The notes beneath the pieces are model-generated. The model saw only the letters and a list, made by a program, of their open reading frames with translations. It did not search any database and was not told the origin of the DNA. Below, one piece after another: positions 3,331 to 14,761 of a DNA stretch of 64,000 bases; the first letter of the stretch is position 1, and every line of letters starts with the position of its first letter. Source of the DNA: a virus. Taxonomy: Duplodnaviria > Heunggongvirae > Uroviricota > Caudoviricetes. Both the position numbers and the translations under genes were made by a program. The stretch is from the IMG/VR virus record IMGVR_UViG_3300029288_000054, positions 1 to 64,000 of that record; one strand, 5' to 3'.

Positions 3331-3360
3331 ATTGACGCACTTGCAGCAATGTGCTATAAT
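3331..3360 (+). promoter_or_regulatory. sigma70-type promoter
   Basis: TTGACG-17nt-TATAAT with GTGC extended -10. Confidence 0.7.
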
Positions 3361-3361
3361 A

Positions 3362-3391
3362 AAATGCACCGGGAACGTTCCCGGTGCATTT
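3362..3391. repeat. perfect 30-bp palindrome (operator or 5-prime hairpin)
   Basis: AAATGCACCGGGAAC|GTTCCCGGTGCATTT directly after the -10. Confidence 0.9.
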
Positions 3392-3412
3392 ACTATTTCA
3401 GGAGATATTATC

Positions 3413-4009
3413 ATGATCGAGCTAACTGATTACCAGAAAGATCTTCTCAAGCAGCTTGAAACGAGCGGACTAAAGCTCACAATCGAGCCAATTGAAACCG
3501 GCACCAGCAAGTCTGATCTCAAGCGGCGATTGCTTGAGTTGGCTGAAAGTGGAGCAGAGAGGCCAGGGACGTCGGAAGAGAAGAAACGACGGTTGCTTGA
3601 GTTGGCTGAAAGCGGAACAAAAAGACCAGAAAAATCGGATAAATTAGGCATAGCACTGACCAGATATTGCAGTGGCGGCTGCTACGACTATAGCTTCGAT
3701 AAGTTGATCCGTGGTTTGCGTCCAGACTGGTTTATTCCTACAGCTACATCAACTAAGGCCGAGCTATTGAAGTTAGCTGAGAGTGGCGCATCACGCCCGA
3801 GTAGCAGTGCATGGGCCAAGTATCAAGAGAATCCTTTACCTTCTGGGACTGTTGAGGAAGCAGAACACGTGGAGGACGTCTATGATGCCGCTATCAGAGA
3901 ACAGCGTCTTGGTCGTGCGTTGATTAACTACACAAACAAGAGTCGCAAGACGTACGATGCAGAATTTGACGCGAAGGTTCGTGCATTACGCCCAGATTGG
4001 TTCAATTGA
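3413..4009 (+). CDS. stand-alone protein made of ~2.5 copies of the repeat found in the adjacent helicase
   Basis: LLELAESG.KRP...LG..L..Y...YD..FD..IR.LRPDWF repeats; GGAG RBS before ATG 3413. Confidence 0.8.
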   Translation: MIELTDYQKDLLKQLETSGLKLTIEPIETGTSKSDLKRRLLELAESGAERPGTSEEKKRRLLELAESGTKRPEKSDKLGIALTRYCSGGCYDYSFDKLIRGLRPDWFIPTATSTKAELLKLAESGASRPSSSAWAKYQENPLPSGTVEEAEHVEDVYDAAIREQRLGRALINYTNKSRKTYDAEFDAKVRALRPDWFN

Positions 4010-7000
4010 TGCTAACTATAAATCCAACTATCACTGTTCGAAGCAATATTCTTGCTGGTAAGATTGTAACGCAATCTGTTATCTTGGATGAGAAGGCAGA
4101 CAGATCCAAGATAGTTCTGCGTCAATATCAATGTGGTATGATCAACCACATGAAGCAGAATCGACTTACATTAGTTGAATCGCCAACCGGTAGTGGCAAA
4201 ACCAACGTAATGCTTTCCTATACTGCTTTCGTCAGGCAGCACAAAAAAGTCGTCATTATCACGCCGCAACTCGGTATCAACCACAATTTCACCAAATACA
4301 CCAAAGGCTGTCACTGGTGTGCTATTGAAAAAGATGAAGAAGGAAGGGAAATAACACGATATACCTTATGCAAGAATAGTATCAGACAAGATGCAATGCA
4401 AAAATCTGAGTCTATGAAACTCTTCTTGAATAGTGTCAAGGGAACAATCCGTGTTTCGAGTTATAAAGCATTCGATCTAGCTCTTGATGATGAGACTATT
4501 GATTTATCTGATGTCGTCTTACTTGTCGATGAAGTCCATCATAGTGATGTGAAGGATGAGAACTTACTTGGTTCGATTATTAGAAGGTGTGTTGATAGAT
4601 GTGCTGAGGTCCACGCCTTCACAGCTACCGACTTTCGCAGTGATGGCGGTCAACCAACACCAGAAGAGTTTAGTCGATTTCGACGACTTCTGAAAGAGCA
4701 TTACCAAGAAGGTTGCTGCCCTGATTTCGATGTAGCTGTTCGATTTTATCACGCTGTGAATAAGTCTGACTTCGATCGATTGGCTGCAACTGAGGATATA
4801 TCAAATAAGCCTGATTTGTTGGATGCTATGAATTATCCTGAGTTGTTGAAGGCATACGTCGACGAATACAAAAGGAGCCCTTTGCCGACAATTATGTATG
4901 TTGATGGTGCTAAACAGGCATTCGATTTGCAAAAAATCCTATTTAATAAATGTAAAGGCGTCAGGATACTCAATTTTGGATCTGATGACGGAGAAACTCT
5001 CGTCTCTAATGTGAAGAAGATGCGTACAGCTAAGCTTGACGCACTCGCTGACGCGCCCAGGTGCTATGATGTTGTTATAGCGATTAAGTTATTTGACGAA
5101 GGCATGGATTGGGTTGAATGTGCTCAGACATTCAATCCACGGCTCACCGGGTCTCTACAGCGGTTTGTCCAGCGATGTATTGGTCGTGCTCTGCGACACA
5201 AAACAAACCCGAAGCATCTATCACCCAATCTCTCTAGGGTTGTAATCTTCGAAGTAAGTCTGGCTGATGAAGATCAAGATGTTGTTAAATATGCCACTCT
5301 ACAGGTGGTTATCAGAATTAAGGCTATTTGCAGTGGTTTGGACTTCACTGATACGTTTACATTGGTTTTACCGCAACGACATCGTGCTGAGGTCGATAAA
5401 GAAAGAGCACGATTTAGGCTGCAGATAAATTCGCTGCAGAATAATGAAATCATACAGCGAATTCTGCGTGCGTCTACTGTTCCTGGAACATCTTCTGATG
5501 AATTAATCAAAATGTTTCACCAACTCTGTGCCAAGCAGGGCTTCGCAATAACTCCGATTTTTGCCATCAGCTTATTGATGCAATGTGATGTCATTGATAA
5601 GAATGACCGCATTGCATTGGAAGAGATCATCCGTAAGCGCGATAGACGCCTTAGTAAATTATCGTTTAGCGAGTTCATGAATGACCCAGAAATCAAGGAA
5701 GCAATCAAGAAACTGAAAGTGATCGGCGTCACAGATTACTTTCAAGTCATTAATGGTATGGATGGTACTGATGAGGTCGAGAGATTATTGATCCGACTCA
5801 ACGCGAACTCAATGAGAGAGAACAAGAAGAAGTTTATAGAGTCGGCAAAGAACGGAGGAAAAAGACCAAAGAAGCGTTCAAAAGATCCCGAGGAGAAGCG
5901 TCTAGGTGGGGTATTCGATAGTTATACGAGGGAAAGCCAAAGAACATACGATCCAGAATTTACTGACGAGATCCGTAAAATAGCTCCACTCTGGCTTGAA
6001 AATCCGACAGCCATGAGAAAACAAAAGTTGTTGGAGATAGCAAAGGGCGGAGCCGAAAGACCGAGCAAACGTTCAAAAAACCTAGCGGAGAGATGTTTTG
6101 GCTTGGCGCTCTGTACTTATACAAATCGGAATGGTCGATCGTACGATCAGGTCTTTGATAAACAGATTCGTGCTCTTCGACCAGAGTGGTTTGTAGATAC
6201 GAAAGCACTGACCAAGGCAAAATTGCTGGCATTAGCTAGTAGTGGTGGTGAAAGACCTATACAACCGACAAAACTAGCGGACAGACTATCTTCATATACA
6301 CGTGAGAATAGTGGCTGCTACGATCAGGAATTCGTTGCTAAGATTCGTGCTATTCGCCCAGAATGGCTCATTCCCAATATAGATCTGAATAAGGATAAAC
6401 TACTAGAACTGGCAGCAAACGGTGCAAAGAAGCCTAGGACCACTAGCAAGCTTGGGGCCGCGTTTTTTAGATATACCAACAAGAATATCAACACATATGA
6501 TCCTGTTTTTGCTGAGAAGATTCGTGCTACCTGTCCTGATTGGCTCGTTAACAGTAAAGATCTAAAGAAAGACAAATTGCTAGAACTGGCAACAAACGGT
6601 GCGAATAGGCCCAACCAATGCTCGAAGAATCGAGAAGAAAAATTGTTGGGAAGCGCGTTGTCTGCCTATACCAACGCCAAAGGCTCTAAACGCGATCCAG
6701 TTTTCAATAAGGAAATTCGTACTCTTCGCCCAGATTGGTTTGAGCCGTTGGTGTCGAATAAAACTGAATTGCTTGATATGGCCAAGAATGGAGGGAAAAG
6801 ACCACGTGGTGAATCTAGAGACCCAAAAGAAAGATTATGGGCTGGAAGGCTATTCAAGTATTTGGTAGATGATCCGTCTTTCAGTGAGCAGATTCATGCT
6901 CTCCGTCCAGATTGGTTCTGCCGTACTATAGCCAGCACTACAGCAAACAAGCAAGTATTATTAGAGTTGGCAGAGAGTAGAGATAATAAGCCGTCTTTTG

Positions 7001-7953
7001 TGTTAAATGACTCAGCAGAAAAGCGATTGGCACGTCTTTTCTATTGTTATACTAACGAGAACTCTAAAGCATATGATCCGATTCTTGCTGAGAAAATCCG
7101 CACTCTTCGTCCGAAATGGTTCATCCATAATGCAGATCTAGACAGGTCTAAATTGTTAGAATTAGCAAAAAGTGGCGCAAAGAAGCCAAGTACCTTCTCA
7201 AAAGACCCAGAAGAGAAGCGATTGGGAAATACATTATATAGATGCACCACTAAAGGTGCTGACTATAATTCTGACTTTAATAAGGAGATTCGTGCCCTCC
7301 GTCCCGACTGGTTCGCATATAAGAAGAGAATCAGGCGTGGCAAATATGCTGGCCGTAATGAATATCGTGAATTCTTGGTCAAGGCTCTGAAATATTACGG
7401 TATTACTTCTTTCTCTGGCTGCGAATTCTGGACTCTCGGCGGCAGAGAATGGTATGAGTACAAGCACCTTGTCGATGCCGGTATCGAACTAAAATGCAAT
7501 TCTTACCACAATGTCGACAAGGGAACAATCGATAAGGCACCAGAAGGAGCCTGTGCTCACTCCAATCGCGAATTCTTGACTATCCACAAGTTATGGAAAC
7601 GATGGCAGAATCCACGTGTCATAAGCTACGACGCGACCATCGGGATGGTTGAATCAAGAACAGAATACTGGCAGGAGTTGTGTTATCTTGCTATCGCTGC
7701 CGCCAAGAAATCAGGATGCATACTGTTCTCATGGAACTTCTTGGAAGGCTACGCACATTCTTCATATGAGCCGATTGCAAAGGGCGTTTATAAGCAATGG
7801 CTGCAATCGTTGAAGGGATTTGCCGAATCGGAAGGACTACAGATCGATTTCTATGCTGATGGGCAGATTACTAAACGCCCAACATCCCAAACACCTATGC
7901 TCGCTGGATGCTGTAAGTTGGTTAAGGTTGGCTTGGCATTGAAAGTTGGTTGA
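4009..7953 (+). CDS. superfamily 2 (DExH) helicase/ATPase with 8 C-terminal ~60-aa repeats and an extra C-terminal domain
   Basis: LRQYQ Q-motif, SPTGSGKT Walker A, LVDEVHH Walker B, FTAT motif III, LFDEGMD motif V, QRCIGRALR motif VI; TGATG coupling to the upstream gene. Confidence 0.85.
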   Translation: MLTINPTITVRSNILAGKIVTQSVILDEKADRSKIVLRQYQCGMINHMKQNRLTLVESPTGSGKTNVMLSYTAFVRQHKKVVIITPQLGINHNFTKYTKGCHWCAIEKDEEGREITRYTLCKNSIRQDAMQKSESMKLFLNSVKGTIRVSSYKAFDLALDDETIDLSDVVLLVDEVHHSDVKDENLLGSIIRRCVDRCAEVHAFTATDFRSDGGQPTPEEFSRFRRLLKEHYQEGCCPDFDVAVRFYHAVNKSDFDRLAATEDISNKPDLLDAMNYPELLKAYVDEYKRSPLPTIMYVDGAKQAFDLQKILFNKCKGVRILNFGSDDGETLVSNVKKMRTAKLDALADAPRCYDVVIAIKLFDEGMDWVECAQTFNPRLTGSLQRFVQRCIGRALRHKTNPKHLSPNLSRVVIFEVSLADEDQDVVKYATLQVVIRIKAICSGLDFTDTFTLVLPQRHRAEVDKERARFRLQINSLQNNEIIQRILRASTVPGTSSDELIKMFHQLCAKQGFAITPIFAISLLMQCDVIDKNDRIALEEIIRKRDRRLSKLSFSEFMNDPEIKEAIKKLKVIGVTDYFQVINGMDGTDEVERLLIRLNANSMRENKKKFIESAKNGGKRPKKRSKDPEEKRLGGVFDSYTRESQRTYDPEFTDEIRKIAPLWLENPTAMRKQKLLEIAKGGAERPSKRSKNLAERCFGLALCTYTNRNGRSYDQVFDKQIRALRPEWFVDTKALTKAKLLALASSGGERPIQPTKLADRLSSYTRENSGCYDQEFVAKIRAIRPEWLIPNIDLNKDKLLELAANGAKKPRTTSKLGAAFFRYTNKNINTYDPVFAEKIRATCPDWLVNSKDLKKDKLLELATNGANRPNQCSKNREEKLLGSALSAYTNAKGSKRDPVFNKEIRTLRPDWFEPLVSNKTELLDMAKNGGKRPRGESRDPKERLWAGRLFKYLVDDPSFSEQIHALRPDWFCRTIASTTANKQVLLELAESRDNKPSFVLNDSAEKRLARLFYCYTNENSKAYDPILAEKIRTLRPKWFIHNADLDRSKLLELAKSGAKKPSTFSKDPEEKRLGNTLYRCTTKGADYNSDFNKEIRALRPDWFAYKKRIRRGKYAGRNEYREFLVKALKYYGITSFSGCEFWTLGGREWYEYKHLVDAGIELKCNSYHNVDKGTIDKAPEGACAHSNREFLTIHKLWKRWQNPRVISYDATIGMVESRTEYWQELCYLAIAAAKKSGCILFSWNFLEGYAHSSYEPIAKGVYKQWLQSLKGFAESEGLQIDFYADGQITKRPTSQTPMLAGCCKLVKVGLALKVG

Positions 7954-8143
7954 TGGTATCTGAATATTTTCCAGTAAACGACCAAGTGCACCTAAACAGG
8001 ATAATATAACAGCGATATTAAATTGACACGGTTGTATGGCATGTTCTAATGGAATATGCAAATATCCAGATACAGATATATTTCAGAAGCAATTGTAATA
8101 TCGGACGGCTCTCTTGGCAGATTCCGTGAATATTTACGGATCA

Positions 8144-8173
8144 GTTAACTGTGTTATTGAGTCGTGCTATAAC
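8144..8173 (+). promoter_or_regulatory. putative promoter of the RAMP-like gene
   Basis: GTTAAC-18nt-TATAAC with CGTGC; imperfect palindrome TCCGTGAAT/ATTTACGGA at 8123-8140 just upstream. Confidence 0.6.
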
Positions 8174-8223
8174 CGATTTGGCGAGTTTTGGTACTATCTC
8201 TTTAGCTATGAAAGGTTTGTGGT

Positions 8224-8904
8224 ATGGTTAAGCTTATCGAAGCTATTGTGTACGATTTCCGGCTTACTGGTGTCACACCGTTATTGATGCATGCTGACAG
8301 CATCGACGGATGCGATGAACTCGAAGCGTGGCGCAAAGAGCCACGTCATAAAGGTGTCAGCAAAGCTGGCGATGATCGGTCCCCCCCGTGGACCTGGATC
8401 GTGCATGTTTGCAACGACGGCACGAACATCGCATTGCCATGGGATTACCTCTCGAAGTGCTGCTGTGTTGCCGGCGCAAAACTGATTGTCAAGGGAAGGA
8501 CGACGTTCAAGTCGGCCACCCAAAGCGGCATTCGTTGGAACGACCAGTTCTACGACTTCCTTGTGGCTGGCAAGCAGGTGGCGATGGCGGATATCTGGAA
8601 GCTGCGGGAAGATGATCTGACGTTTGCGGAACAGAAGAAAGCTGTTCGTGAAATGGGCTTCGATCTGTTCGTGAAACGCGCTAGGGTCGGTCAGAGCAAG
8701 CACATCCGCGTTCGTGCCAAGTTCGACAAGTGGGAGGTTCGCGGCAAGTTCTGTGTTTCGATGCCAGAATTGACTGCAGATGTGCTGCAGCAGATCCTTT
8801 CCATTGCTGGTCAGAATGCCGGTCTCGGCGATTGGCGTCCTGGTGCACCTTCGTCGCCCGGACCCTACGGCATGTTTACTGCCGAGGTAGCCAAGGTGAA
8901 GTAG
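8224..8904 (+). CDS. stand-alone RAMP/Cas7-like RNA-binding protein (putative Vipr-like effector)
   Basis: N-terminal strand YDFRLTGVTPLLMH, IALPWDYLSKC helix motif and C-terminal glycine-rich loop AGLGDWRPGAPSSPGPYGMF follow the RAMP pattern; directly precedes the repeat array. Confidence 0.7.
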   Translation: MVKLIEAIVYDFRLTGVTPLLMHADSIDGCDELEAWRKEPRHKGVSKAGDDRSPPWTWIVHVCNDGTNIALPWDYLSKCCCVAGAKLIVKGRTTFKSATQSGIRWNDQFYDFLVAGKQVAMADIWKLREDDLTFAEQKKAVREMGFDLFVKRARVGQSKHIRVRAKFDKWEVRGKFCVSMPELTADVLQQILSIAGQNAGLGDWRPGAPSSPGPYGMFTAEVAKVK

Positions 8905-8914
8905 TTGACCTGTT

Positions 8915-8952
8915 TTGGCTGGGGCCATTGCTGGCCCCAGCCAATTGTTTTT
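8915..8952 (+). terminator. 13-bp stem-loop with T-rich tail between the RAMP gene and the array
   Basis: TTGGCTGGGGCCA-TTGC-TGGCCCCAGCCAA followed by TTGTTTTT. Confidence 0.7.
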
Positions 8953-10010
8953 GTGCGGTAGGCACGTTTACGAATCAAGAGAAATGTGGTCAGGCAGGGC
9001 TGGGCGAGGCACGGTACGGTGCGGCAGGCAAGGCTCGGCTCGGTTGGGTCAGGTAAGGTCTGGGTGCCAATGGCACATTTACAAATCAAAGAGTGATGAG
9101 GTCAGGTATGGTCGGGTTGTGTACGGTTAGGTCAGGTGTGACAGGGTGTGGTCGGGCAGGGTCTGGGTGCCAATGGCACATTTACAAATCAAGAGGAATG
9201 TTCGGCTGGGTAGGGTCTGGTCAGGTGTAGCTTGGTCGGGTCAGGCTCGGTAGCGTACGGTCAGGCTAGGTTTGGTGCGGTAAGGTTTGGGTGCCAATGG
9301 CACATTTACAAATCAAGAGTGACGTGGCAAGGTAAGGTTAGGTGCGGTAGCGTCCGGCAAGGTCTGGTGTTGTAAGGTTAGGATGGGTCAGGTAGGGGTG
9401 CCAATGGCACATTTACAAATCAAGAGTGACGGTTTGGCGGAGCAAGGTTCGGCGGGGCTCGGCGGGTACGGTGTGGTTGGGTTCGCTAGGGCTTGGTATG
9501 GCTAGGTACGGTAAGGTAGGGGTGCCAATGGCACATTTAAATCAAGAGGAATGTGGTGTGGTGCAGTACGGCGGTGCTCGGTTAGGTTCGGTAAGGTTCG
9601 GTCAGGTGAGGTGTAGTAGGGCTTGGTAAGGTAATGTGCGGCGGGGTTCGGCTGGGTCGGGTGAGGGTGCCAATGGCACATTTACAAATCAAGAGGAATG
9701 TTCGGCTGGGTATGGTGCGGTAGAGTAGGGCTTGGCAGGGTAAATGTGTGGCTGGGCTTGGTTGGGTCGGGTGAGGGTGCCAATGGCACATTTACAAATC
9801 AAGTGAAAGCGGTGAGGTCTGCCAAGGTCGGGTCTAGCGAGGTCAGGCCGGGTACGGTCGGGTACGGTGTGGTAAGGTTTGGGTGCCAATGGCACATTTA
9901 CAAATCAAGAGGAATGGTTGTGTCGGCCAGGGTCTGGTCGGGAGGGTGGCGTCGGGCAGGGCTAGGCCCGGTCGGGCAGGGTATGGTAGGGGTGCCAATG
10001 GCACTTTACA
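8953..10010 (+). ncRNA. array of nine putative guide-RNA units: (GGY-NN)13-22 tracts each closed by a ~31-nt hairpin repeat
   Basis: repeat GGGTGCCAATGGCACATTTACAAATCAAGAG at 9062, 9165, 9289, 9396, 9520, 9665, 9775, 9881, 9990 (last truncated) plus a degenerate copy at 8953; intervening tracts are 5-nt periodic GGYNN; RNA function is inferred. Confidence 0.8.
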
Positions 10011-10026
10011 TTCATTAACTGGAGAT

Positions 10027-10548
10027 ATGATGAGCTATATGTTTAAACCGAATCCAGAATCGCGTGCTGCAGTTGAACGATTGATGGCTCTGGCAGCAAA
10101 CAGAGATCGCGGCGAAGTCATGCAATGGCAGGAACTTGAGCGAGCCAGCGGTATTGGCCGTTATCAATTGATGCGCGAAAACGGGACTGCGAACGGTGCC
10201 TACATTATGAAACGCTTTCACGACAGGATGTTGGAAGAGCGTGGTATCGAGATTTGGCCTGAACGCGAAATCGGTGTTCGATTGCTTTCGGGCCACGAGC
10301 AGGCGACGTTGCCATTCAAGCATCGATGCAAACGGGCACGTAGGCAATTTAGGAAGTCTCTAAAGACAATGAATTTTCTGAATCGCGACCCGAAAGTCAG
10401 CCTTAGCATTATAGATGCTAGGCTGGTCGCTATGCAGCTTGAAATGGCAACGCAGAACATCGAGATTTTGAATCATCAATTGCGTGACGTTAACAAGAAT
10501 CCGCCCGGCTCCGAGAGTATCGACAGACCACCACCAGCCACAATGTAA
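10027..10548 (+). CDS. array-associated protein, predicted winged-helix N-terminus plus helical C-terminus
   Basis: GGAG RBS then ATG 10027 right after the last repeat; RGEVMQWQELERASG...RGIEIWPEREIGVRLL resembles a wHTH; the 9883 start in the track lies inside the array. Confidence 0.7.
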   Translation: MMSYMFKPNPESRAAVERLMALAANRDRGEVMQWQELERASGIGRYQLMRENGTANGAYIMKRFHDRMLEERGIEIWPEREIGVRLLSGHEQATLPFKHRCKRARRQFRKSLKTMNFLNRDPKVSLSIIDARLVAMQLEMATQNIEILNHQLRDVNKNPPGSESIDRPPPATM

Positions 10549-10571
10549 AGGAAGCTGATAAATAGGTATCA

Positions 10572-10601
10572 GTTAACTAGGCGGCTGAGTGATGCTATAA
10601 T
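10572..10601 (+). promoter_or_regulatory. putative promoter (shared consensus)
   Basis: GTTAAC-18nt-TATAAT; ATCAGTTAACT identical to the copy at 8140. Confidence 0.6.
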
Positions 10602-10635
10602 TAGTTGCTTGGCTCGTATCTATCTGGAGCTCTAT

Positions 10636-11901
10636 ATGGAAGATCAATACCTCTCGCGTCACGAATTAGCTGCATTTCTTGGTGTTTCGGTGCGGTCGGT
10701 TGACAGGAGGGCTTCCGATGGTGGCCTTCCAGAACCGATTTGGTTGGGCTCACCAAACGGAAAGAAATCTCGCAGGTGGCGAAAATCTGCTATTGTTGCT
10801 AAGTTGGAATCAACAAATAGCCCGGTGTCGGTACCGGTATCAATACAACAGCCGATGCAGCAAGTATCGGCACAGCCAGCGTTACCCACAACCAAAGGTC
10901 CTATCATGATTCAGACTTCCGACTTCACCACGATGATCCCAAACTCCAGATCGCTGCTACACAAGGGTGATAATGTTGGTCCGAAGTATCGCGAGATAGG
11001 AGGCAGTACCGATCTGTTGAAGAAAACAGAAGTTGTTCTCACAAGAGAGAAGGCTGCAGAATTTCTGAAGTTTAAGGAGTTCATTGCGGAACGGTCGCTC
11101 AAGACGCAGCATGTCGCTGATTTACAGAAGCAGATGGTTCGTGGTCTATTCAGACCGGAGCTCGTCATGTTGTCGACGGCATATTGTCAAGAGGACAAGC
11201 AAACCTATCGTTTGAATGGCCAACATTGTTGTTGGGCTGTCTTCAATCTTCCGTCTAATTTCAATCCGGAGTATAAGATCAATCTGCTGCATTACAGATG
11301 TAAAACGCTTGATGACGTCCGTATCTTGTATAGCACGATTGACCGAAACCTTGCTCGGTCACCTATGACGGTTGTCAACTCGATTCTTTTCGGTAGGCCG
11401 GGATATGAGAAATACAGCCAACAAGTATTAAGTTTGGTCGTCGCTGGATTCTCTACGTGGAAGTGGGAATCGTACAATGAACGGGTCAAGTTCGATACTG
11501 ATGCTAAGTGTCATATCATGGACACTGAGTATCACCAACTAACTCATCAAGTCATGGATTTCTGTCATGAACATGTCCTGAATAGACGACATTTAAAGCG
11601 AGCATCCGTGGCCGCTGCAATGTTTGAGACGTTTCAAAAATGCGCGGCTGATGCCAGTCGTTTTTGGGAATCTGTTGCAACTGGTGTCGGATTCGAAAGT
11701 CGAAAAGATCCTCGCCTAAAGTTGAAGGAATACCTCGACCAAAATTGGGTTTGTATGCGGGGCGGCAGCGATACATCGAAGAAAGCCGTAGGGCAAGAAG
11801 AGATGTATCGCAAGTGTATAAAGGCTTGGGATAAATTTCGTAGCGGTGAAGAATGTTCTTGCCTTGTATTGAAATCCAAAAGTCGGCAGAGGGCTAAGTG
11901 A
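10636..11901 (+). CDS. AlpA/excisionase-like HTH fused to a ParB/Srx-like domain
   Basis: YLSRHELAAFLGVSVRSVDRRASDGGLPEPI...RRWRKS is an AlpA-type HTH; ERSLKTQHVADLQKQM...RLNGQHCCWA...YSTID resembles the ParB-N DGQHR family; GGAG RBS. Confidence 0.7.
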   Translation: MEDQYLSRHELAAFLGVSVRSVDRRASDGGLPEPIWLGSPNGKKSRRWRKSAIVAKLESTNSPVSVPVSIQQPMQQVSAQPALPTTKGPIMIQTSDFTTMIPNSRSLLHKGDNVGPKYREIGGSTDLLKKTEVVLTREKAAEFLKFKEFIAERSLKTQHVADLQKQMVRGLFRPELVMLSTAYCQEDKQTYRLNGQHCCWAVFNLPSNFNPEYKINLLHYRCKTLDDVRILYSTIDRNLARSPMTVVNSILFGRPGYEKYSQQVLSLVVAGFSTWKWESYNERVKFDTDAKCHIMDTEYHQLTHQVMDFCHEHVLNRRHLKRASVAAAMFETFQKCAADASRFWESVATGVGFESRKDPRLKLKEYLDQNWVCMRGGSDTSKKAVGQEEMYRKCIKAWDKFRSGEECSCLVLKSKSRQRAK

Positions 11902-12530
11902 TTATGAGCCTTATTGAAGAGTTGCAGCCGTTTCCATATGAACAGTACAAAGGAATTGTACTTGATCCACTGGTCATCTATGCAATCAACGAGATCGCTG
12001 AGAGGGGTATTGATCCTTCATTCGAGAACATTGTAGCGGCTTCATATTTATTATTTCCGAGGAAGTTCTCGCTGCAGGGTTACCCTACATTTCCGGATGC
12101 CCTTAGAGTTGATCACGTATTGCGGCGCAGCATCTACAAGACACGCAGATGGCTTCGAGGAAAATCCAAACAAGGTTTTACGCTGACCGACGTTGGATAC
12201 AAAATCCTACGAGAGGTCAAGGAAGCTTTGTCGGTAGCACCCAAATCATCTAAAGAGTATTCACATACACGGCGATACGACAGACTTCTTGCTGAAGTTA
12301 GGCGGTCGTCGGCATTCGTCAAATATCAGCAAGGTGATCAAGAATCAATTACAGCATCTGATTGTTGCTATGCTTTGCAGTGTACTCTTGACTCTGATTC
12401 GCACATTCGTATTACTAATTTGCGGCAACTTCGCACAATCGCAGCAGATCTCGAACAGAATGATATTATAATATTCTTGGATTGGCTTGGTGATCGATTT
12501 GATCATATCATCAAAGGATACGCTCGATGA
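11898..12530 (+). CDS. winged-helix-like hypothetical protein
   Basis: SFENIVAASYLLFPRKFSLQGYPTFPD...GFTLTDVG wHTH-like pattern; coupled to both neighbours. Confidence 0.6.
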   Translation: MIMSLIEELQPFPYEQYKGIVLDPLVIYAINEIAERGIDPSFENIVAASYLLFPRKFSLQGYPTFPDALRVDHVLRRSIYKTRRWLRGKSKQGFTLTDVGYKILREVKEALSVAPKSSKEYSHTRRYDRLLAEVRRSSAFVKYQQGDQESITASDCCYALQCTLDSDSHIRITNLRQLRTIAADLEQNDIIIFLDWLGDRFDHIIKGYAR

Positions 12531-14761
12531 GAACATTCACTATTACTGCGGACCCACGTTTGGTGGCTCGTCGCGTTAAGACCGCCATCCAGGGGGACGT
12601 TATAAAAGCCTTAGCCGAACTTATCACCAACTGCGATGATAGCTATCGGATTCTGGAAGGCGATAACGTTCCCGTGAACGGTAATATCGATGTCGTCTAC
12701 CACAAACAAGGGCGGTTTGCTTGTCGGTTCGCTGTGAGAGATAATGCTGCTGGTATGTCGTACGATGAATTATCTCGTAGCTTTGAATTTTATGGCTCTT
12801 CGACCAGCGGTTTCAAGAGCGGCAAATCTGTGACAGGGTTCTTCGGTACCGGTGCCAAGAACGCACTTGCAGCAATGATTGGTGGCCGTATGTGCACTTT
12901 TAAAGACGGCATCTTCACCGAATGCCGTATCTTTTTTAAGGATGATGTTCTATCTGGTGAGATTGACGATGCGCGACCAGCAACAGCCGCGCTTCGATTA
13001 GAACACGGCATAGATGGAAACGGAACAATAGCCTATTTCATGGCTGATCCTGATAAGGGCTTGAAGGTGCCGCAGTTCGATACCGTCTTCTCGTCTCTTG
13101 CAAATAGCTGGCGGTTGCGTAAGATAATGTCTAATCGCAAGAGGCGTGTAACTCTCGTTAATGCTGGTGATAAGAATCGAAAGCGTCATTTGAGTTATGG
13201 TATATTAAGGGGTATTGAGGTAGCAAACTTACCTATCACAACCGCTGTTGACGGATATGGCGAATTCAATGCTCACGTGATTCTATATCGTGCTGGCGAT
13301 GAACTTTCACAAAGTGGGGAGGAGCGGCAAGGTGGCCTGCTTATTGTCGACGACGCCCAATCTGTTCTGGATATTTCATTATTCAAGTACGACAACGAGC
13401 CATTGGCATCACATTTATTCGGCGAACTAGTCATTCACGGTTTCCGTGAATTGATGGAACGTGAAGAGCCCATTCTTAAAGAAGAACGCGATGGTATAAA
13501 TCATAGCCATCCTGTGTGTGCTGCAATCATTGATGAAGTTGAGCAGCGCATTGGCCGTGCAGTCAGAGAAGAGGAACAACGTCGTCGGCAATCGCAGGTA
13601 AAGCCAGATTCTGCGGAAACCAAGCGTTATATGGCCGGAATAAACGTATTAAATGCGATTGCAGAGGCAGAGATCGAAGATATTGTCGATTTAGGGCAGA
13701 AATTGAATAGAAAGGACGAGACTAGACCAGAAAGTATGGACTTGTTGCCGTCATCAGCACATGTTTCTATCGGGAAGCAATGCGTACTTTATGTCTTCAT
13801 CAATACAAAAGTCATCCCACCCGGAACACGTGTAGCCATAACGTGTACAAACAAACTACAAATTGTAGGCAAGGAGGCTTTCGTAGTTTCGAAACCAAGA
13901 AGTGACACAAAAGTAAAAAATCTTTCCATATGCCACGTGACAGTTAAGGCGTTTGAACTTGGTGAAGCCGTTTTGACCGTGGAATGCGGCGATTACTCTT
14001 CGAGCTCTACTATTTATATCGATCCAGAGAAAGAAGAAAAGGAGTTGTTATATAGTGAAGGTCTCATCTTTCGACCGCAGCATCTATCAGTACGGCTGAA
14101 CAAGGTGAGAGAATCATCTTTGCTTATTTATACTCCAGTAGTCACTGATGGCATCAAAGTACGTATCAGAGTTGAAGGCGACGATAGCGAAAACGTCTTC
14201 GTATCGCCAGAAGAGATTGAGGTAATAGCAAGCGATGCCAAGAAGGACGTTATCGAGCACAAGGTTGAAGTCTGGGGCGACAGTATTGGTGCCAAAGCAC
14301 TTATCGTTGCTGAGACGGAATTCGAGCAAGTTGCCTTACTTGAAGTTTGTGTTCGCGAATCTGTAGAGGATGAAAAGAATCGAGGGAAAGGGATGTTCAA
14401 CAAACCTTCCTTCGACTTGTCTGAGCAGGACCCAAGCCAAAGGACGTCCTACAGCAAAGAGACTGGGCAAGTGATTATATATGGTAACTTTCCGTCTGTT
14501 CGGCATTATCTCGGTAAAGATTGCCGATTCAATAAAACGCTTGCCGGGCAGGTGTTGATTGCTGATATGGTTGCTGAACGATGTTTCTTTGAGATCGCAA
14601 GGGCCAAGGTTGATCGCGGCGTTGCACTGGGTAGTGGAGAACAGAGGGTTGAGAAGATTAGAGGTATTGCTGAGATGTTATCTAAGAAATACGGCCACAC
14701 AATTCACGCGCAGATGGTTGACAACGATCTGATCGATGCCGACCGTTCGCAAACCGATTAA
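12527..14761 (+). CDS. GHKL-family (HATPase_c, MORC/Hsp90-like) ATPase with beta-rich C-terminal domains
   Basis: Bergerat motifs ELITNCDDS, VRDNAAGMS, GFFGTGAK, GNGT. Confidence 0.8.
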   Translation: MRTFTITADPRLVARRVKTAIQGDVIKALAELITNCDDSYRILEGDNVPVNGNIDVVYHKQGRFACRFAVRDNAAGMSYDELSRSFEFYGSSTSGFKSGKSVTGFFGTGAKNALAAMIGGRMCTFKDGIFTECRIFFKDDVLSGEIDDARPATAALRLEHGIDGNGTIAYFMADPDKGLKVPQFDTVFSSLANSWRLRKIMSNRKRRVTLVNAGDKNRKRHLSYGILRGIEVANLPITTAVDGYGEFNAHVILYRAGDELSQSGEERQGGLLIVDDAQSVLDISLFKYDNEPLASHLFGELVIHGFRELMEREEPILKEERDGINHSHPVCAAIIDEVEQRIGRAVREEEQRRRQSQVKPDSAETKRYMAGINVLNAIAEAEIEDIVDLGQKLNRKDETRPESMDLLPSSAHVSIGKQCVLYVFINTKVIPPGTRVAITCTNKLQIVGKEAFVVSKPRSDTKVKNLSICHVTVKAFELGEAVLTVECGDYSSSSTIYIDPEKEEKELLYSEGLIFRPQHLSVRLNKVRESSLLIYTPVVTDGIKVRIRVEGDDSENVFVSPEEIEVIASDAKKDVIEHKVEVWGDSIGAKALIVAETEFEQVALLEVCVRESVEDEKNRGKGMFNKPSFDLSEQDPSQRTSYSKETGQVIIYGNFPSVRHYLGKDCRFNKTLAGQVLIADMVAERCFFEIARAKVDRGVALGSGEQRVEKIRGIAEMLSKKYGHTIHAQMVDNDLIDADRSQTD

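What the first reader, a model, noticed from the sequence alone, without database searches (positions are those of the whole stretch)
8953..10010. Conserved 31-nt repeat with a GTGCC-AAT-GGCAC hairpin delimits each unit: candidate processing or handle signal
Seen: nine copies, with the hairpin invariant and small changes only in the A-rich tail (extra A in the 9062 copy, 2-nt deletion in the 9520 copy, truncated last copy). A leading degenerate copy at 8953 (GTGC-GGTAG-GCAC GTTTACGAATCAAGAG) changes the loop but keeps the outer GTGC/GCAC stem, which points to selection on RNA structure. Unit periods are 103-145 nt. Inference: a long precursor is cut at or near the hairpin into individual ~100-145 nt guides, by the RAMP itself (Cas6-like) or by a host RNase acting on the unprotected AU-rich tail.
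Basis: partly seen in the sequence, partly recalled or inferred. Interest (0 to 1): 0.7.

Follow-up and report, generated by a model that had tools for sequence, protein, structure and literature searches.

The report
Phage VIPR guide-RNA array tails
The 31-nt hairpin repeat is real and is the conserved 3' "tail" ending each of nine guide RNAs of a VIPR system, a CRISPR-like RNA-guided DNA-silencing system of phages first described in 2026 preprints, so it is a new example of a known kind.

Summary
Observation confirmed. Nine exact copies of GTGCC-AAT-GGCAC, each followed by ATTTACAAATCAAGAG, lie at 9064-10004, with a degenerate leader copy at 8953. Between them are 5-nt-periodic YNNGG tracts of 14-23 pentamers.

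The locus is a VIPR system (bioRxiv 10.64898/2026.04.26.720920 and .720927):
- The 226-aa gene at 8224-8904 is a Vipr protein. It matches PDB 36pp "SUSP1 Vipr protein" and has a Cas7-like fold.
- The tracts are vrRNA guide regions.
- The repeat is the vrRNA 3' tail.
- The gene at 10027-10548 is the accessory vap.

About 110 related loci carry the same tracts, always on the vipr strand. The tail hairpin covaries strongly across them (GTGCC/GGCAC, GCACC/GGTGC, GAGCC/GGCTC and others; 97.8% paired).

In this clade the tail is a plain 5-bp triloop hairpin plus a short A-rich linker, not the SUSP1 pseudoknot. The linkers carry no promoter of the phage's own type, so a co-transcribed precursor is likely. 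What cuts it is untested here and not addressed in the passages I read of the preprints.

No targets were found. A second 3-unit array lies at 218 kb in the same 388-kb phage genome. This scan has met VIPR loci in at least eight other genomes.

The parts
8145..8172 (+). promoter-like site upstream of vipr (TTAACT-N17-TGCTATAA, extended -10)
   Evidence: TGCTATAA occurs 83 times in the genome against about 15 expected. This copy lies 52 nt before the vipr start. Function as a promoter is inferred.
8224..8904 (+). vipr gene (226-aa Vipr RAMP protein)
   Evidence: A profile of 58 homologues hits PDB 36pp 'SUSP1 Vipr protein' at E 4.4e-13; the single sequence hits it at E 3.3e-6. The AF2 model has pLDDT 92, and its top Foldseek hits are Cas7, Csm3 and type VII Cas7. 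The LLMH-AD and GLGDWRP motifs align with SUSP1 FLSH-AD and GVGDWRP.
8915..8954 (+). intrinsic-terminator-like hairpin plus T-run between vipr and the array
   Evidence: 13-bp stem with 9 GC pairs.
8953..8981 (+). degenerate leader copy of the tail (GTGC-GGTAG-GCAC plus GTTTACGAATCAAGAG), with no pentamer tract before it
   Evidence: Its GGTAG loop resembles the GGTAGT loop of the SUSP1-type tail in phage tootiki.
8985..9076 (+). vrRNA A1: about 16 YNNGG pentamers plus tail hairpin 9064-9076 (5' boundary approximate)
9097..9179 (+). vrRNA A2: about 14 pentamers plus hairpin 9167-9179
9201..9303 (+). vrRNA A3: 18 pentamers plus hairpin 9291-9303
9323..9410 (+). vrRNA A4: about 15 pentamers plus hairpin 9398-9410
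9428..9534 (+). vrRNA A5: about 19 pentamers (one 4-nt unit) plus hairpin 9522-9534
9552..9679 (+). vrRNA A6: 23 pentamers plus hairpin 9667-9679
9701..9789 (+). vrRNA A7: about 15 pentamers (one 6-nt unit) plus hairpin 9777-9789
9808..9895 (+). vrRNA A8: 15 pentamers plus hairpin 9883-9895
9918..10004 (+). vrRNA A9: about 15 pentamers plus hairpin 9992-10004. The linker is replaced here by the RBS region of vap.
10027..10548 (+). vap accessory gene (172-173 aa; reported by another reader as winged-helix-like)
   Evidence: It is homologous to the gene that follows the array in related VIPR loci (L003, E 2e-9). It is weakly similar to the gene after vipr in the SUSP1-like phage tootiki (E 0.005). 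It matches phrog_5926. The same gene order is seen in L001, L003 and L004.

Best explanation
The region is the guide-RNA (vrRNA) array of a phage VIPR system.

Each unit is one vrRNA. It consists of a tract of 14-23 YNNGG pentamers followed by a conserved tail. By homology with the SUSP1 system, one Vipr protomer binds each pentamer. The protomers hold the GGY bases and expose the NN dinucleotides, which read double-stranded DNA with a one-base skip.

The hairpin is the 3' cap or handle that ends each Vipr filament and marks the unit boundary. Shown here: sequence, covariation and homology. Known from the literature for SUSP1 only: the capping role.

The nine units are most likely transcribed as one precursor, from the vipr promoter through a leaky terminator or from a promoter I could not recognise, and then separated within the unprotected linker. 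My best guess is that a host endo- or exoribonuclease does this while Vipr protects the tract and hairpin. This step is inferred and was not tested.
For: 1. Vipr membership: the profile and the single sequence both hit PDB 36pp 'SUSP1 Vipr protein', and the fold is Cas7-like.

2. Pentamer tracts: the lag-5 GG signal is 112 against 30 +/- 5.6 in shuffles, and each unit parses into 14-23 YNNGG units.

3. Conservation: about 110 of 120 related loci carry such tracts beside vipr. All are on the vipr strand except one 7-unit call on the other strand.

4. Tail hairpin covariation over 55 tails from 30 loci: 97.8% of cells paired against 75.9% in shuffles. There were 56 double-sided changes against 12.3, a level reached by 0 of 500 shuffles. 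Slid controls gave 29-40% paired. Pair 2 is CG 22, UA 13, AU 10, GC 8. Pair 3 is GC 33, AU 11, CG 8, UA 2. Within this genome the third unit of array B has the compensatory variant GTGTC-TAT-GACAC.

5. Literature: vrRNAs are YNNGG tracts followed by an invariant structured 3' tail, likened to the crRNA handle. [quoted passage not shown] Discrete vrRNAs of about 100 nt were seen by sRNA-seq and co-purify with Vipr.

6. Precursor: the internal linkers are about 21 nt here and as short as 16 nt in related loci. They lack the phage's over-represented TGCTATAA extended -10 motif, which does precede vipr, the gene after vap, and array B.

7. The base after the stem is A in 87% of internal tails and 73% of terminal tails, and is never C.
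Against: - No RNA data exist for this phage. Expression, ends and processing are inferred from homologues that share about 21% protein identity with the characterised SUSP1 type.
- The hairpin is too small to stand out thermodynamically.
- The tails used for covariation were chosen by a CC-NAY-GG pattern. The two inner pairs are therefore fixed by selection, and only the three outer pairs are informative.
- No DNA target of any of the 12 guides was found under the published 1-nt-skip rule. The guide function is therefore not independently confirmed for this locus.
- An intrinsic terminator lies between vipr and the array, and no promoter was recognised for the array.
Confidence: 0.85

Rival explanations
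1. Same VIPR array, but Vipr itself cuts the precursor at the hairpin, as Cas6 does for crRNA.
For: Vipr is a RAMP with conserved His and Asp residues after the first strands (H23, D25, D31 invariant or nearly so). The hairpin-plus-A junction is conserved. The leader copy and, in L002, a terminator hairpin followed by ATTTTACGA both precede the first unit.
Against: The fold matches Cas7, Csm3 and Cmr4, not Cas6. The conserved His and the G-loop residues are described as GGY-binding contacts in the SUSP1 structure. Other VIPR types place hammerhead ribozymes between units, which would be unnecessary if Vipr cleaved. Array B starts from a promoter-like site with no upstream hairpin or linker.
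Confidence: 0.12
2. Each unit is its own transcription unit. The A-rich part (TTTACA...) would be a promoter element, and no processing is needed.
For: TTTACA resembles a -35 hexamer. In the SUSP1-like phage tootiki, each vrRNA is preceded by a conserved sequence of about 30 nt that could be a promoter.
Against: The scan finds no sigma-70-like site in the array. The linkers are about 21 nt here, as short as 16 nt in related loci and not conserved between loci. The phage's own TGCTATAA motif is absent from all nine linkers.
Confidence: 0.08
3. The repeat array is not a guide array. It could be a CRISPR array, a ToxI-like type III antitoxin RNA, or a DNA-level element such as iterons, an origin or an R-loop-prone G-rich tract.
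For: It has a repeat-spacer layout beside a RAMP gene. The tandem repeats sit before a small gene, as in toxIN. The tracts show strong G-skew.
Against: The 'spacers' are 5-nt-periodic low-complexity tracts, not captured DNA. No Cas family other than weak helicase hits is present. The units differ in length and sequence, unlike ToxI. L004 keeps both genes with no array. The tracts are strictly co-oriented with vipr in about 110 loci, and the hairpin covaries, which points to a transcript. There is no Rfam match.
Confidence: 0.03

Closest known systems
Type II VIPR systems of Escherichia phage SUSP1 (and the Felixounavirus tootiki) and of the Pseudomonas fulva prophage (bioRxiv 10.64898/2026.04.26.720920, .720927, 10.64898/2026.10.15.759431; PDB 36pp)
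   Same: A lone Cas7-like Vipr protein. YNNGG pentamer guide tracts on the vipr strand. A conserved structured 3' tail directly after the last GG. A small accessory gene after vipr. Phage-borne. The tail sequence is itself similar: window GGCAC-ATTTACAAATCAAGAG against tootiki ATCCAC-GTTAAAAATCTACCAAG. Distant extra arrays correspond to the 'solo' vrRNAs of the October preprint.
   Different: Only about 21% protein identity to the SUSP1 type. The tail is a 5-bp triloop hairpin with no CTACC partner for a pseudoknot. Units carry 14-23 pentamers, against 9-16 (or 10-12) reported. Nine units are packed head to tail with 21-nt linkers between vipr and vap, whereas tootiki has single units each with its own upstream conserved sequence. 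The host phage is a 388-kb uncultivated jumbo phage. I could not determine which of the seven published types this clade belongs to, because the supplementary tables are not held.
Class 1 CRISPR crRNA repeats with a Cas6-bound 3' hairpin (types I-E, I-F and III precursors)
   Same: A conserved hairpin-forming repeat separates variable guide segments. RAMP (Cas7-fold) protomers polymerise along the guide. The hairpin stays at the 3' end of the unit.
   Different: There is no Cas6, Cas5, Cas1 or Cas2. The guide is a gapped pentamer code, not contiguous captured DNA. Units appear to arise by duplication and recombination rather than by acquisition: A1 and B1 share their last four pentamers, and A3 and A7 share their first ones. 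The processing nuclease is unknown.
VIPR arrays with hammerhead ribozymes or staggered 1-nt-overlapping units (figs S18-S19 of 10.64898/2026.04.26.720920)
   Same: Multi-guide arrays that must be resolved into single vrRNAs.
   Different: This array has neither a ribozyme (no Rfam hit) nor staggered overlap. Its units are separated by a hairpin plus a linker. Staggered-looking arrays, with 6-nt gaps between tracts, do occur among the related loci (for example L074, L076, L086 and L104).

Membership tests
VIPR system | Vipr protein: a single-RRM RAMP homologous to SUSP1 Vipr, with G-loop and thumb | tested here: met
   The profile hits PDB 36pp at E 4.4e-13 and the single sequence at E 3.3e-6, with the GDWRP G-loop and the H-A-D motif aligned. 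The AF2 model has pLDDT 92, and its best fold matches are Cas7-family subunits.
VIPR system | vrRNA guide region of tandem YNNGG (GGY/NN) pentamers on the vipr strand | tested here: met
   The lag-5 GG count is 112 against 30 +/- 5.6. There are nine units of 14-23 pentamers. The same tracts flank vipr in about 110 related loci, on the + strand only.
VIPR system | Conserved, structured 3' tail directly after the last pentamer | tested here: met
   The hairpin is invariant in nine copies. The outer three pairs covary across loci. It is a plain hairpin, not the pseudoknot of the SUSP1 clade.
VIPR system | Accessory vap gene next to vipr | tested here: met
   The gene at 10027-10548 is homologous to the gene in the same position in L003 (E 2e-9). 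It is weakly similar to the gene following vipr in tootiki (E 0.005). Its identity with published vap1 was not checked directly.
VIPR system | Discrete vrRNAs expressed and bound by Vipr as a helical RNP | not testable with these tools
   This needs sRNA-seq or pull-down. It is known only for the SUSP1, P. fulva, type III and type V representatives.
VIPR system | NN dinucleotides match natural DNA targets under the 1-nt-skip rule | tested here: inconclusive
   No match above shuffled guides was found in the phage's own genome, as expected, or in 713 kb of related loci. Six exact sub-pattern scans of viral and metagenome contigs gave nothing. Mismatch-tolerant searches of large collections were not possible.
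CRISPR-Cas array | Unique spacers of captured foreign DNA between identical repeats, with a cas1/cas2 adaptation module or other cas genes | tested here: not met
   The inter-repeat segments are pentamer-periodic. No Cas families appear in the neighbouring genes beyond weak helicase similarities.
Type III toxin-antitoxin (ToxIN-like) | Near-identical short tandem RNA repeats preceding an endoribonuclease toxin that they neutralise | tested here: not met
   The units differ in length (103-145 nt) and content. The related locus L004 has both flanking genes without any array. The downstream protein has no toxin family match.

The most novel reading that the evidence does not exclude
In this large Vipr clade, the triloop hairpin, the invariant unpaired A and the AC(R)AAWC-type linker may form a dedicated maturation signal. 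It could be read by Vipr itself or by a specific host RNase, and would let one transcript deliver up to nine guides of 14-23 pentamers, longer filaments than any solved. The remote array B, placed directly behind tRNA-Met and tRNA-Thr, may instead be matured by tRNA-processing enzymes. How vrRNA arrays mature is not addressed in the passages I read of the preprints.
Probability: 0.15. Interest if true: 0.45.

Novelty: new member of a known kind. Interest (0 to 1): 0.25.

Why it matters
It assigns a clear function to an odd-looking 1-kb non-coding block in an uncultivated 388-kb phage: twelve programmable guides for silencing rival DNA.

It also adds comparative detail to a months-old field. 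A very large Vipr clade (888 or more proteins at E <= 0.001) uses a simple covarying triloop hairpin as the vrRNA tail, not the SUSP1 pseudoknot. That clade packs up to nine guides into a promoter-less array and uses guides of up to 23 pentamers.

The open question it sharpens is how such arrays are cut into single guides. That matters for engineering multiplexed VIPR tools. The kind of system itself is already published, and this scan has met it in at least eight other genomes.

Tried and rejected
- Rfam scan of 8000-11000 at E <= 1: no family, hence no hammerhead or other known ribozyme.
- Pfam, NCBIfam and PADLOC on the 226-aa protein: no hit. Only phrog_4652, of unknown function, matched.
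- Self-targeting: the 12 guides were scanned against the 388-kb genome with 0-3 skipped bases. The best matches equal those of shuffled guides.
- Guides against 713 kb of related VIPR loci: same result.
- Exact gapped sub-patterns of 10-11 dinucleotides from guides A6, A3 and A8: no hits in viral contigs or in metagenome contigs. Exact matching is far less sensitive than the published threshold of >=80% NN match, so this is not evidence that targets are absent.
- Thermodynamic support for the hairpin: not significant. An outer helix GGUUUG/CAAAUC appears in some units but depends on variable pentamers and is not conserved.
- Generic search for any 4-bp hairpin after tracts: uninformative (82% of tracts against 69% of random positions). 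It was replaced by the specific GNNCC-WAY-GGNNC alignment.
- The idea that the linker is a required 5' handle: weakened, because array B's first unit starts from a promoter-like site without it.
- The 1318-aa SF2 helicase upstream was considered as a vap-like partner and rejected. It is separated from vipr by a promoter-like site, and the closest related locus, L002, has no gene of that size upstream of vipr.
- VIPR type (I-VII) assignment: not possible, because no supplementary files are held.

Full report
**What is in the sequence.** Between 8953 and 10010 the + strand carries nine exact copies of the 13-nt palindrome-like element GTGCC-AAT-GGCAC. They start at 9064, 9167, 9291, 9398, 9522, 9667, 9777, 9883 and 9992. 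None lies on the other strand of the window. The ninth keeps only TTTACA before running into the ribosome-binding site of the next gene.

A degenerate copy, GTGC-GGTAG-GCAC GTTTACGAATCAAGAG, sits at 8953-8981, directly after an intrinsic-terminator-like hairpin at 8915-8944.

The segments between the copies are not CRISPR-like spacers. They are 5-nt-periodic YNNGG tracts. GG pairs at lag 5 number 112, against 29.9 +/- 5.6 in shuffles. The tracts parse into 14-23 pentamers per unit with occasional 4- or 6-nt units.

**What it is.** The gene upstream (8224-8904, 226 aa) has no Pfam, NCBIfam or PADLOC match, only phrog_4652 of unknown function. It has at least 888 metagenomic homologues.

- A profile of 58 of these homologues matches the PDB chain 36pp_D, "SUSP1 Vipr protein", at E 4.4e-13.
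- The single sequence matches the same chain at E 3.3e-6. The motif LLMH-AD aligns with FLSH-AD, and GLGDWRP with GVGDWRP.
- An AlphaFold model (pLDDT 92.1) finds Cas7-family subunits (type VII Cas7, Csm3, Cmr4) as its best solved relatives.

[quoted passage not shown] It defines VIPR systems by four parts:

- a lone RAMP protein (Vipr);
- vrRNAs made of YNNGG repeats, whose NN dinucleotides read double-stranded DNA with a one-base skip;
- an invariant, structured 3' tail after the repeat tract, likened to the crRNA repeat handle;
- an accessory gene (vap).

The companion structure preprint (10.64898/2026.04.26.720927) shows one protomer per pentamer in a helical filament, with the tail pseudoknot capping the 3' end. 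It names a beta-sheet His and G-loop Asp, aromatic and Arg residues as the GGY contacts. These match the motifs conserved here.

The gene after the array (10027-10548) is homologous to the gene in the same position in related loci. It is weakly similar to the gene after vipr in the SUSP1-like phage tootiki. It is therefore the vap.

The window is the first 64 kb of a single 388,105-bp virus contig.

**Comparative evidence for the hairpin.** I fetched 114 loci encoding relatives of this Vipr from viral contigs and from bacterial and archaeal genomes, in addition to five found earlier. About 110 of them carry pentamer tracts immediately upstream of vipr, between vipr and vap, or after vap. All are on the vipr strand. 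Only one short call was made on the opposite strand in the whole set.

In a large subset, the tract ends in the same kind of element as here: G-N-N-C-C, a W-A-Y triloop, then G-G-N'-N'-C. I aligned 55 such tails from 30 loci. In the 5-bp helix, 97.8% of cells are paired, against 75.9% in shuffles and 29-40% when the partner is slid by 1-3 columns. There are 56 double-sided changes, against 12.3 expected, a level reached by 0 of 500 shuffles. The second pair is CG 22, UA 13, AU 10 and GC 8. The third pair is GC 33, AU 11, CG 8 and UA 2.

The two inner C-G pairs were fixed by my selection pattern, so only the outer three pairs carry the evidence. Within this genome, the third unit of a second array has the compensatory variant GTGTC-TAT-GACAC. 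The base after the stem is A in 87% of internal tails and 73% of terminal tails, and is never C. Free energy alone does not distinguish the hairpin.

**How this tail differs from the characterised one.** In tootiki the tail is GTGGAT-GGTAGT-ATCCAC GTTAAAAATCTACCAAG. Its loop GGTAG can pair with the downstream CTACC to form the published pseudoknot.

The window's tail is recognisably related in sequence (CAC-RTTWA-AAATC-AAG). It has a 3-nt loop and no CTACC, so it is a plain hairpin followed by a single-stranded A-rich stretch. The degenerate leader copy keeps a GGTAG loop, but it too lacks CTACC.

**One precursor or many transcripts.** The phage has an over-represented extended -10 motif, TGCTATAA, with 83 copies against about 15 expected. 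It precedes vipr (8165), the gene after vap (10593) and the second array (218,241, - strand). It is absent from 8905-10030. The generic promoter scan also finds nothing in the array.

The linkers are about 21 nt here and as short as 16 nt in related loci. They are conserved within a locus but not between loci. That leaves no room for a promoter per unit. The nine units are therefore most likely co-transcribed, by read-through of the terminator at 8915-8944 or from a promoter I cannot recognise, and then separated.

What does the cutting is not shown here, and the passages I read of the preprints do not address it. Two indirect points argue against Vipr itself. Its fold is Cas7-like, not Cas6-like. 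Other VIPR types insert hammerhead ribozymes between units.

The second array starts a few bases after a promoter-like TGCTATAAC with no hairpin or linker upstream. The linker is thus not a required 5' handle. I therefore favour trimming of the unprotected linker by host RNases, at about 55% of the probability among the processing models. This remains an inference.

**Targets.** Under the published rule I scanned the 12 guides against the phage's own genome and against 713 kb of related loci, using 0-3 skipped bases. Nothing exceeded shuffled guides. That agrees with the reported absence of self-targeting.

Six exact gapped sub-patterns found nothing in the viral or metagenome collections. These scans tolerate no mismatch, so they say little. 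The host and the targets remain unknown.

**Comparison and novelty.** All testable defining features of VIPR are met: Vipr homology, pentamer tracts, a structured tail, a vap gene and a phage location. The expression and target features could not be tested or were inconclusive. CRISPR and ToxIN-like readings fail their defining features.

Relative to the published type II examples, this locus differs in five ways:

- about 21% protein identity;
- a hairpin tail, not a pseudoknot;
- 14-23 pentamers per guide, against 9-16;
- a nine-unit, promoter-less array, the largest among the 62 arrays of this tail class in my sample;
- a second remote array.

Remote "solo" vrRNAs are already described, as is a range of array architectures. 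This scan has followed up VIPR loci in at least eight other genomes. I rate it a new member of a known kind, with modest interest centred on the unresolved maturation step.

Noticed in passing
L121:2393-2751 (- strand), equal to genome 217,892-218,250, outside the window: A second vrRNA array of three units has the same tail: two exact GTGCCAATGGCAC copies and one compensatory GTGTC-TAT-GACAC. It lies about 208 kb from vipr, directly downstream of tRNA-Met and tRNA-Thr and of a TGCTATAAC promoter-like site. A 101-aa ORF with no family match follows it. Its first guide shares its last four pentamers with guide A1.
   Followed up: partly
window 8165, 10593 and 81 other sites in the genome: The extended -10-like motif TGCTATAA is about 5-fold over-represented (83 copies against about 15 expected) and often sits before genes. 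It is probably the main promoter element used by this phage. The copies before vipr and after vap share a longer 43-nt similarity (8130-8172 and 10558-10600).
   Followed up: partly
window 9201-9215 with 9701-9715; 9657-9666 with 9767-9776; 9044-9063 with array B unit 1: Guides share blocks of pentamers at their ends: A3 and A7 at the 5' end, A6 and A7 at the 3' end, and A1 and B1 at the 3' end. This fits growth of the arrays by duplication and recombination rather than by acquisition.
   Followed up: no
L004:5001-6507 (NCBI GCA_040384425.1 contig): A related locus keeps vipr (256 aa) and the vap-like gene but has no pentamer tract anywhere in the 10.8 kb fetched, only a terminator between the two genes. 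Either its guides lie elsewhere (solo vrRNAs) or the system is guide-less.
   Followed up: no
L074, L076, L086, L104 and others: Some relatives have tracts separated by only 6 nt, which looks like the published 'staggered' array architecture. Others (L009, L011, L013, L014, L087) have a two-hairpin tail: the GNNCC-WAY-GGNNC hairpin followed by CCGCG-ATT-TGCGG. Tail architecture varies within this one Vipr clade.
   Followed up: no
window 3332-7953: A 1318-aa SF2 helicase (ResIII/DEAD N-terminus, weak PbeA and DinG similarities) and a 225-aa gene lie just upstream of the VIPR cassette. The closest related VIPR locus, L002, has no gene of that size upstream of vipr, so they are probably independent.
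   Followed up: partly
window 10609-14761: After vap come three overlapping genes: an HTH-containing 430-aa protein, a 210-aa protein and a 744-aa GHKL-type ATPase (weak HATPase_c hits). This is possibly another conflict or defence cassette.
   Followed up: no
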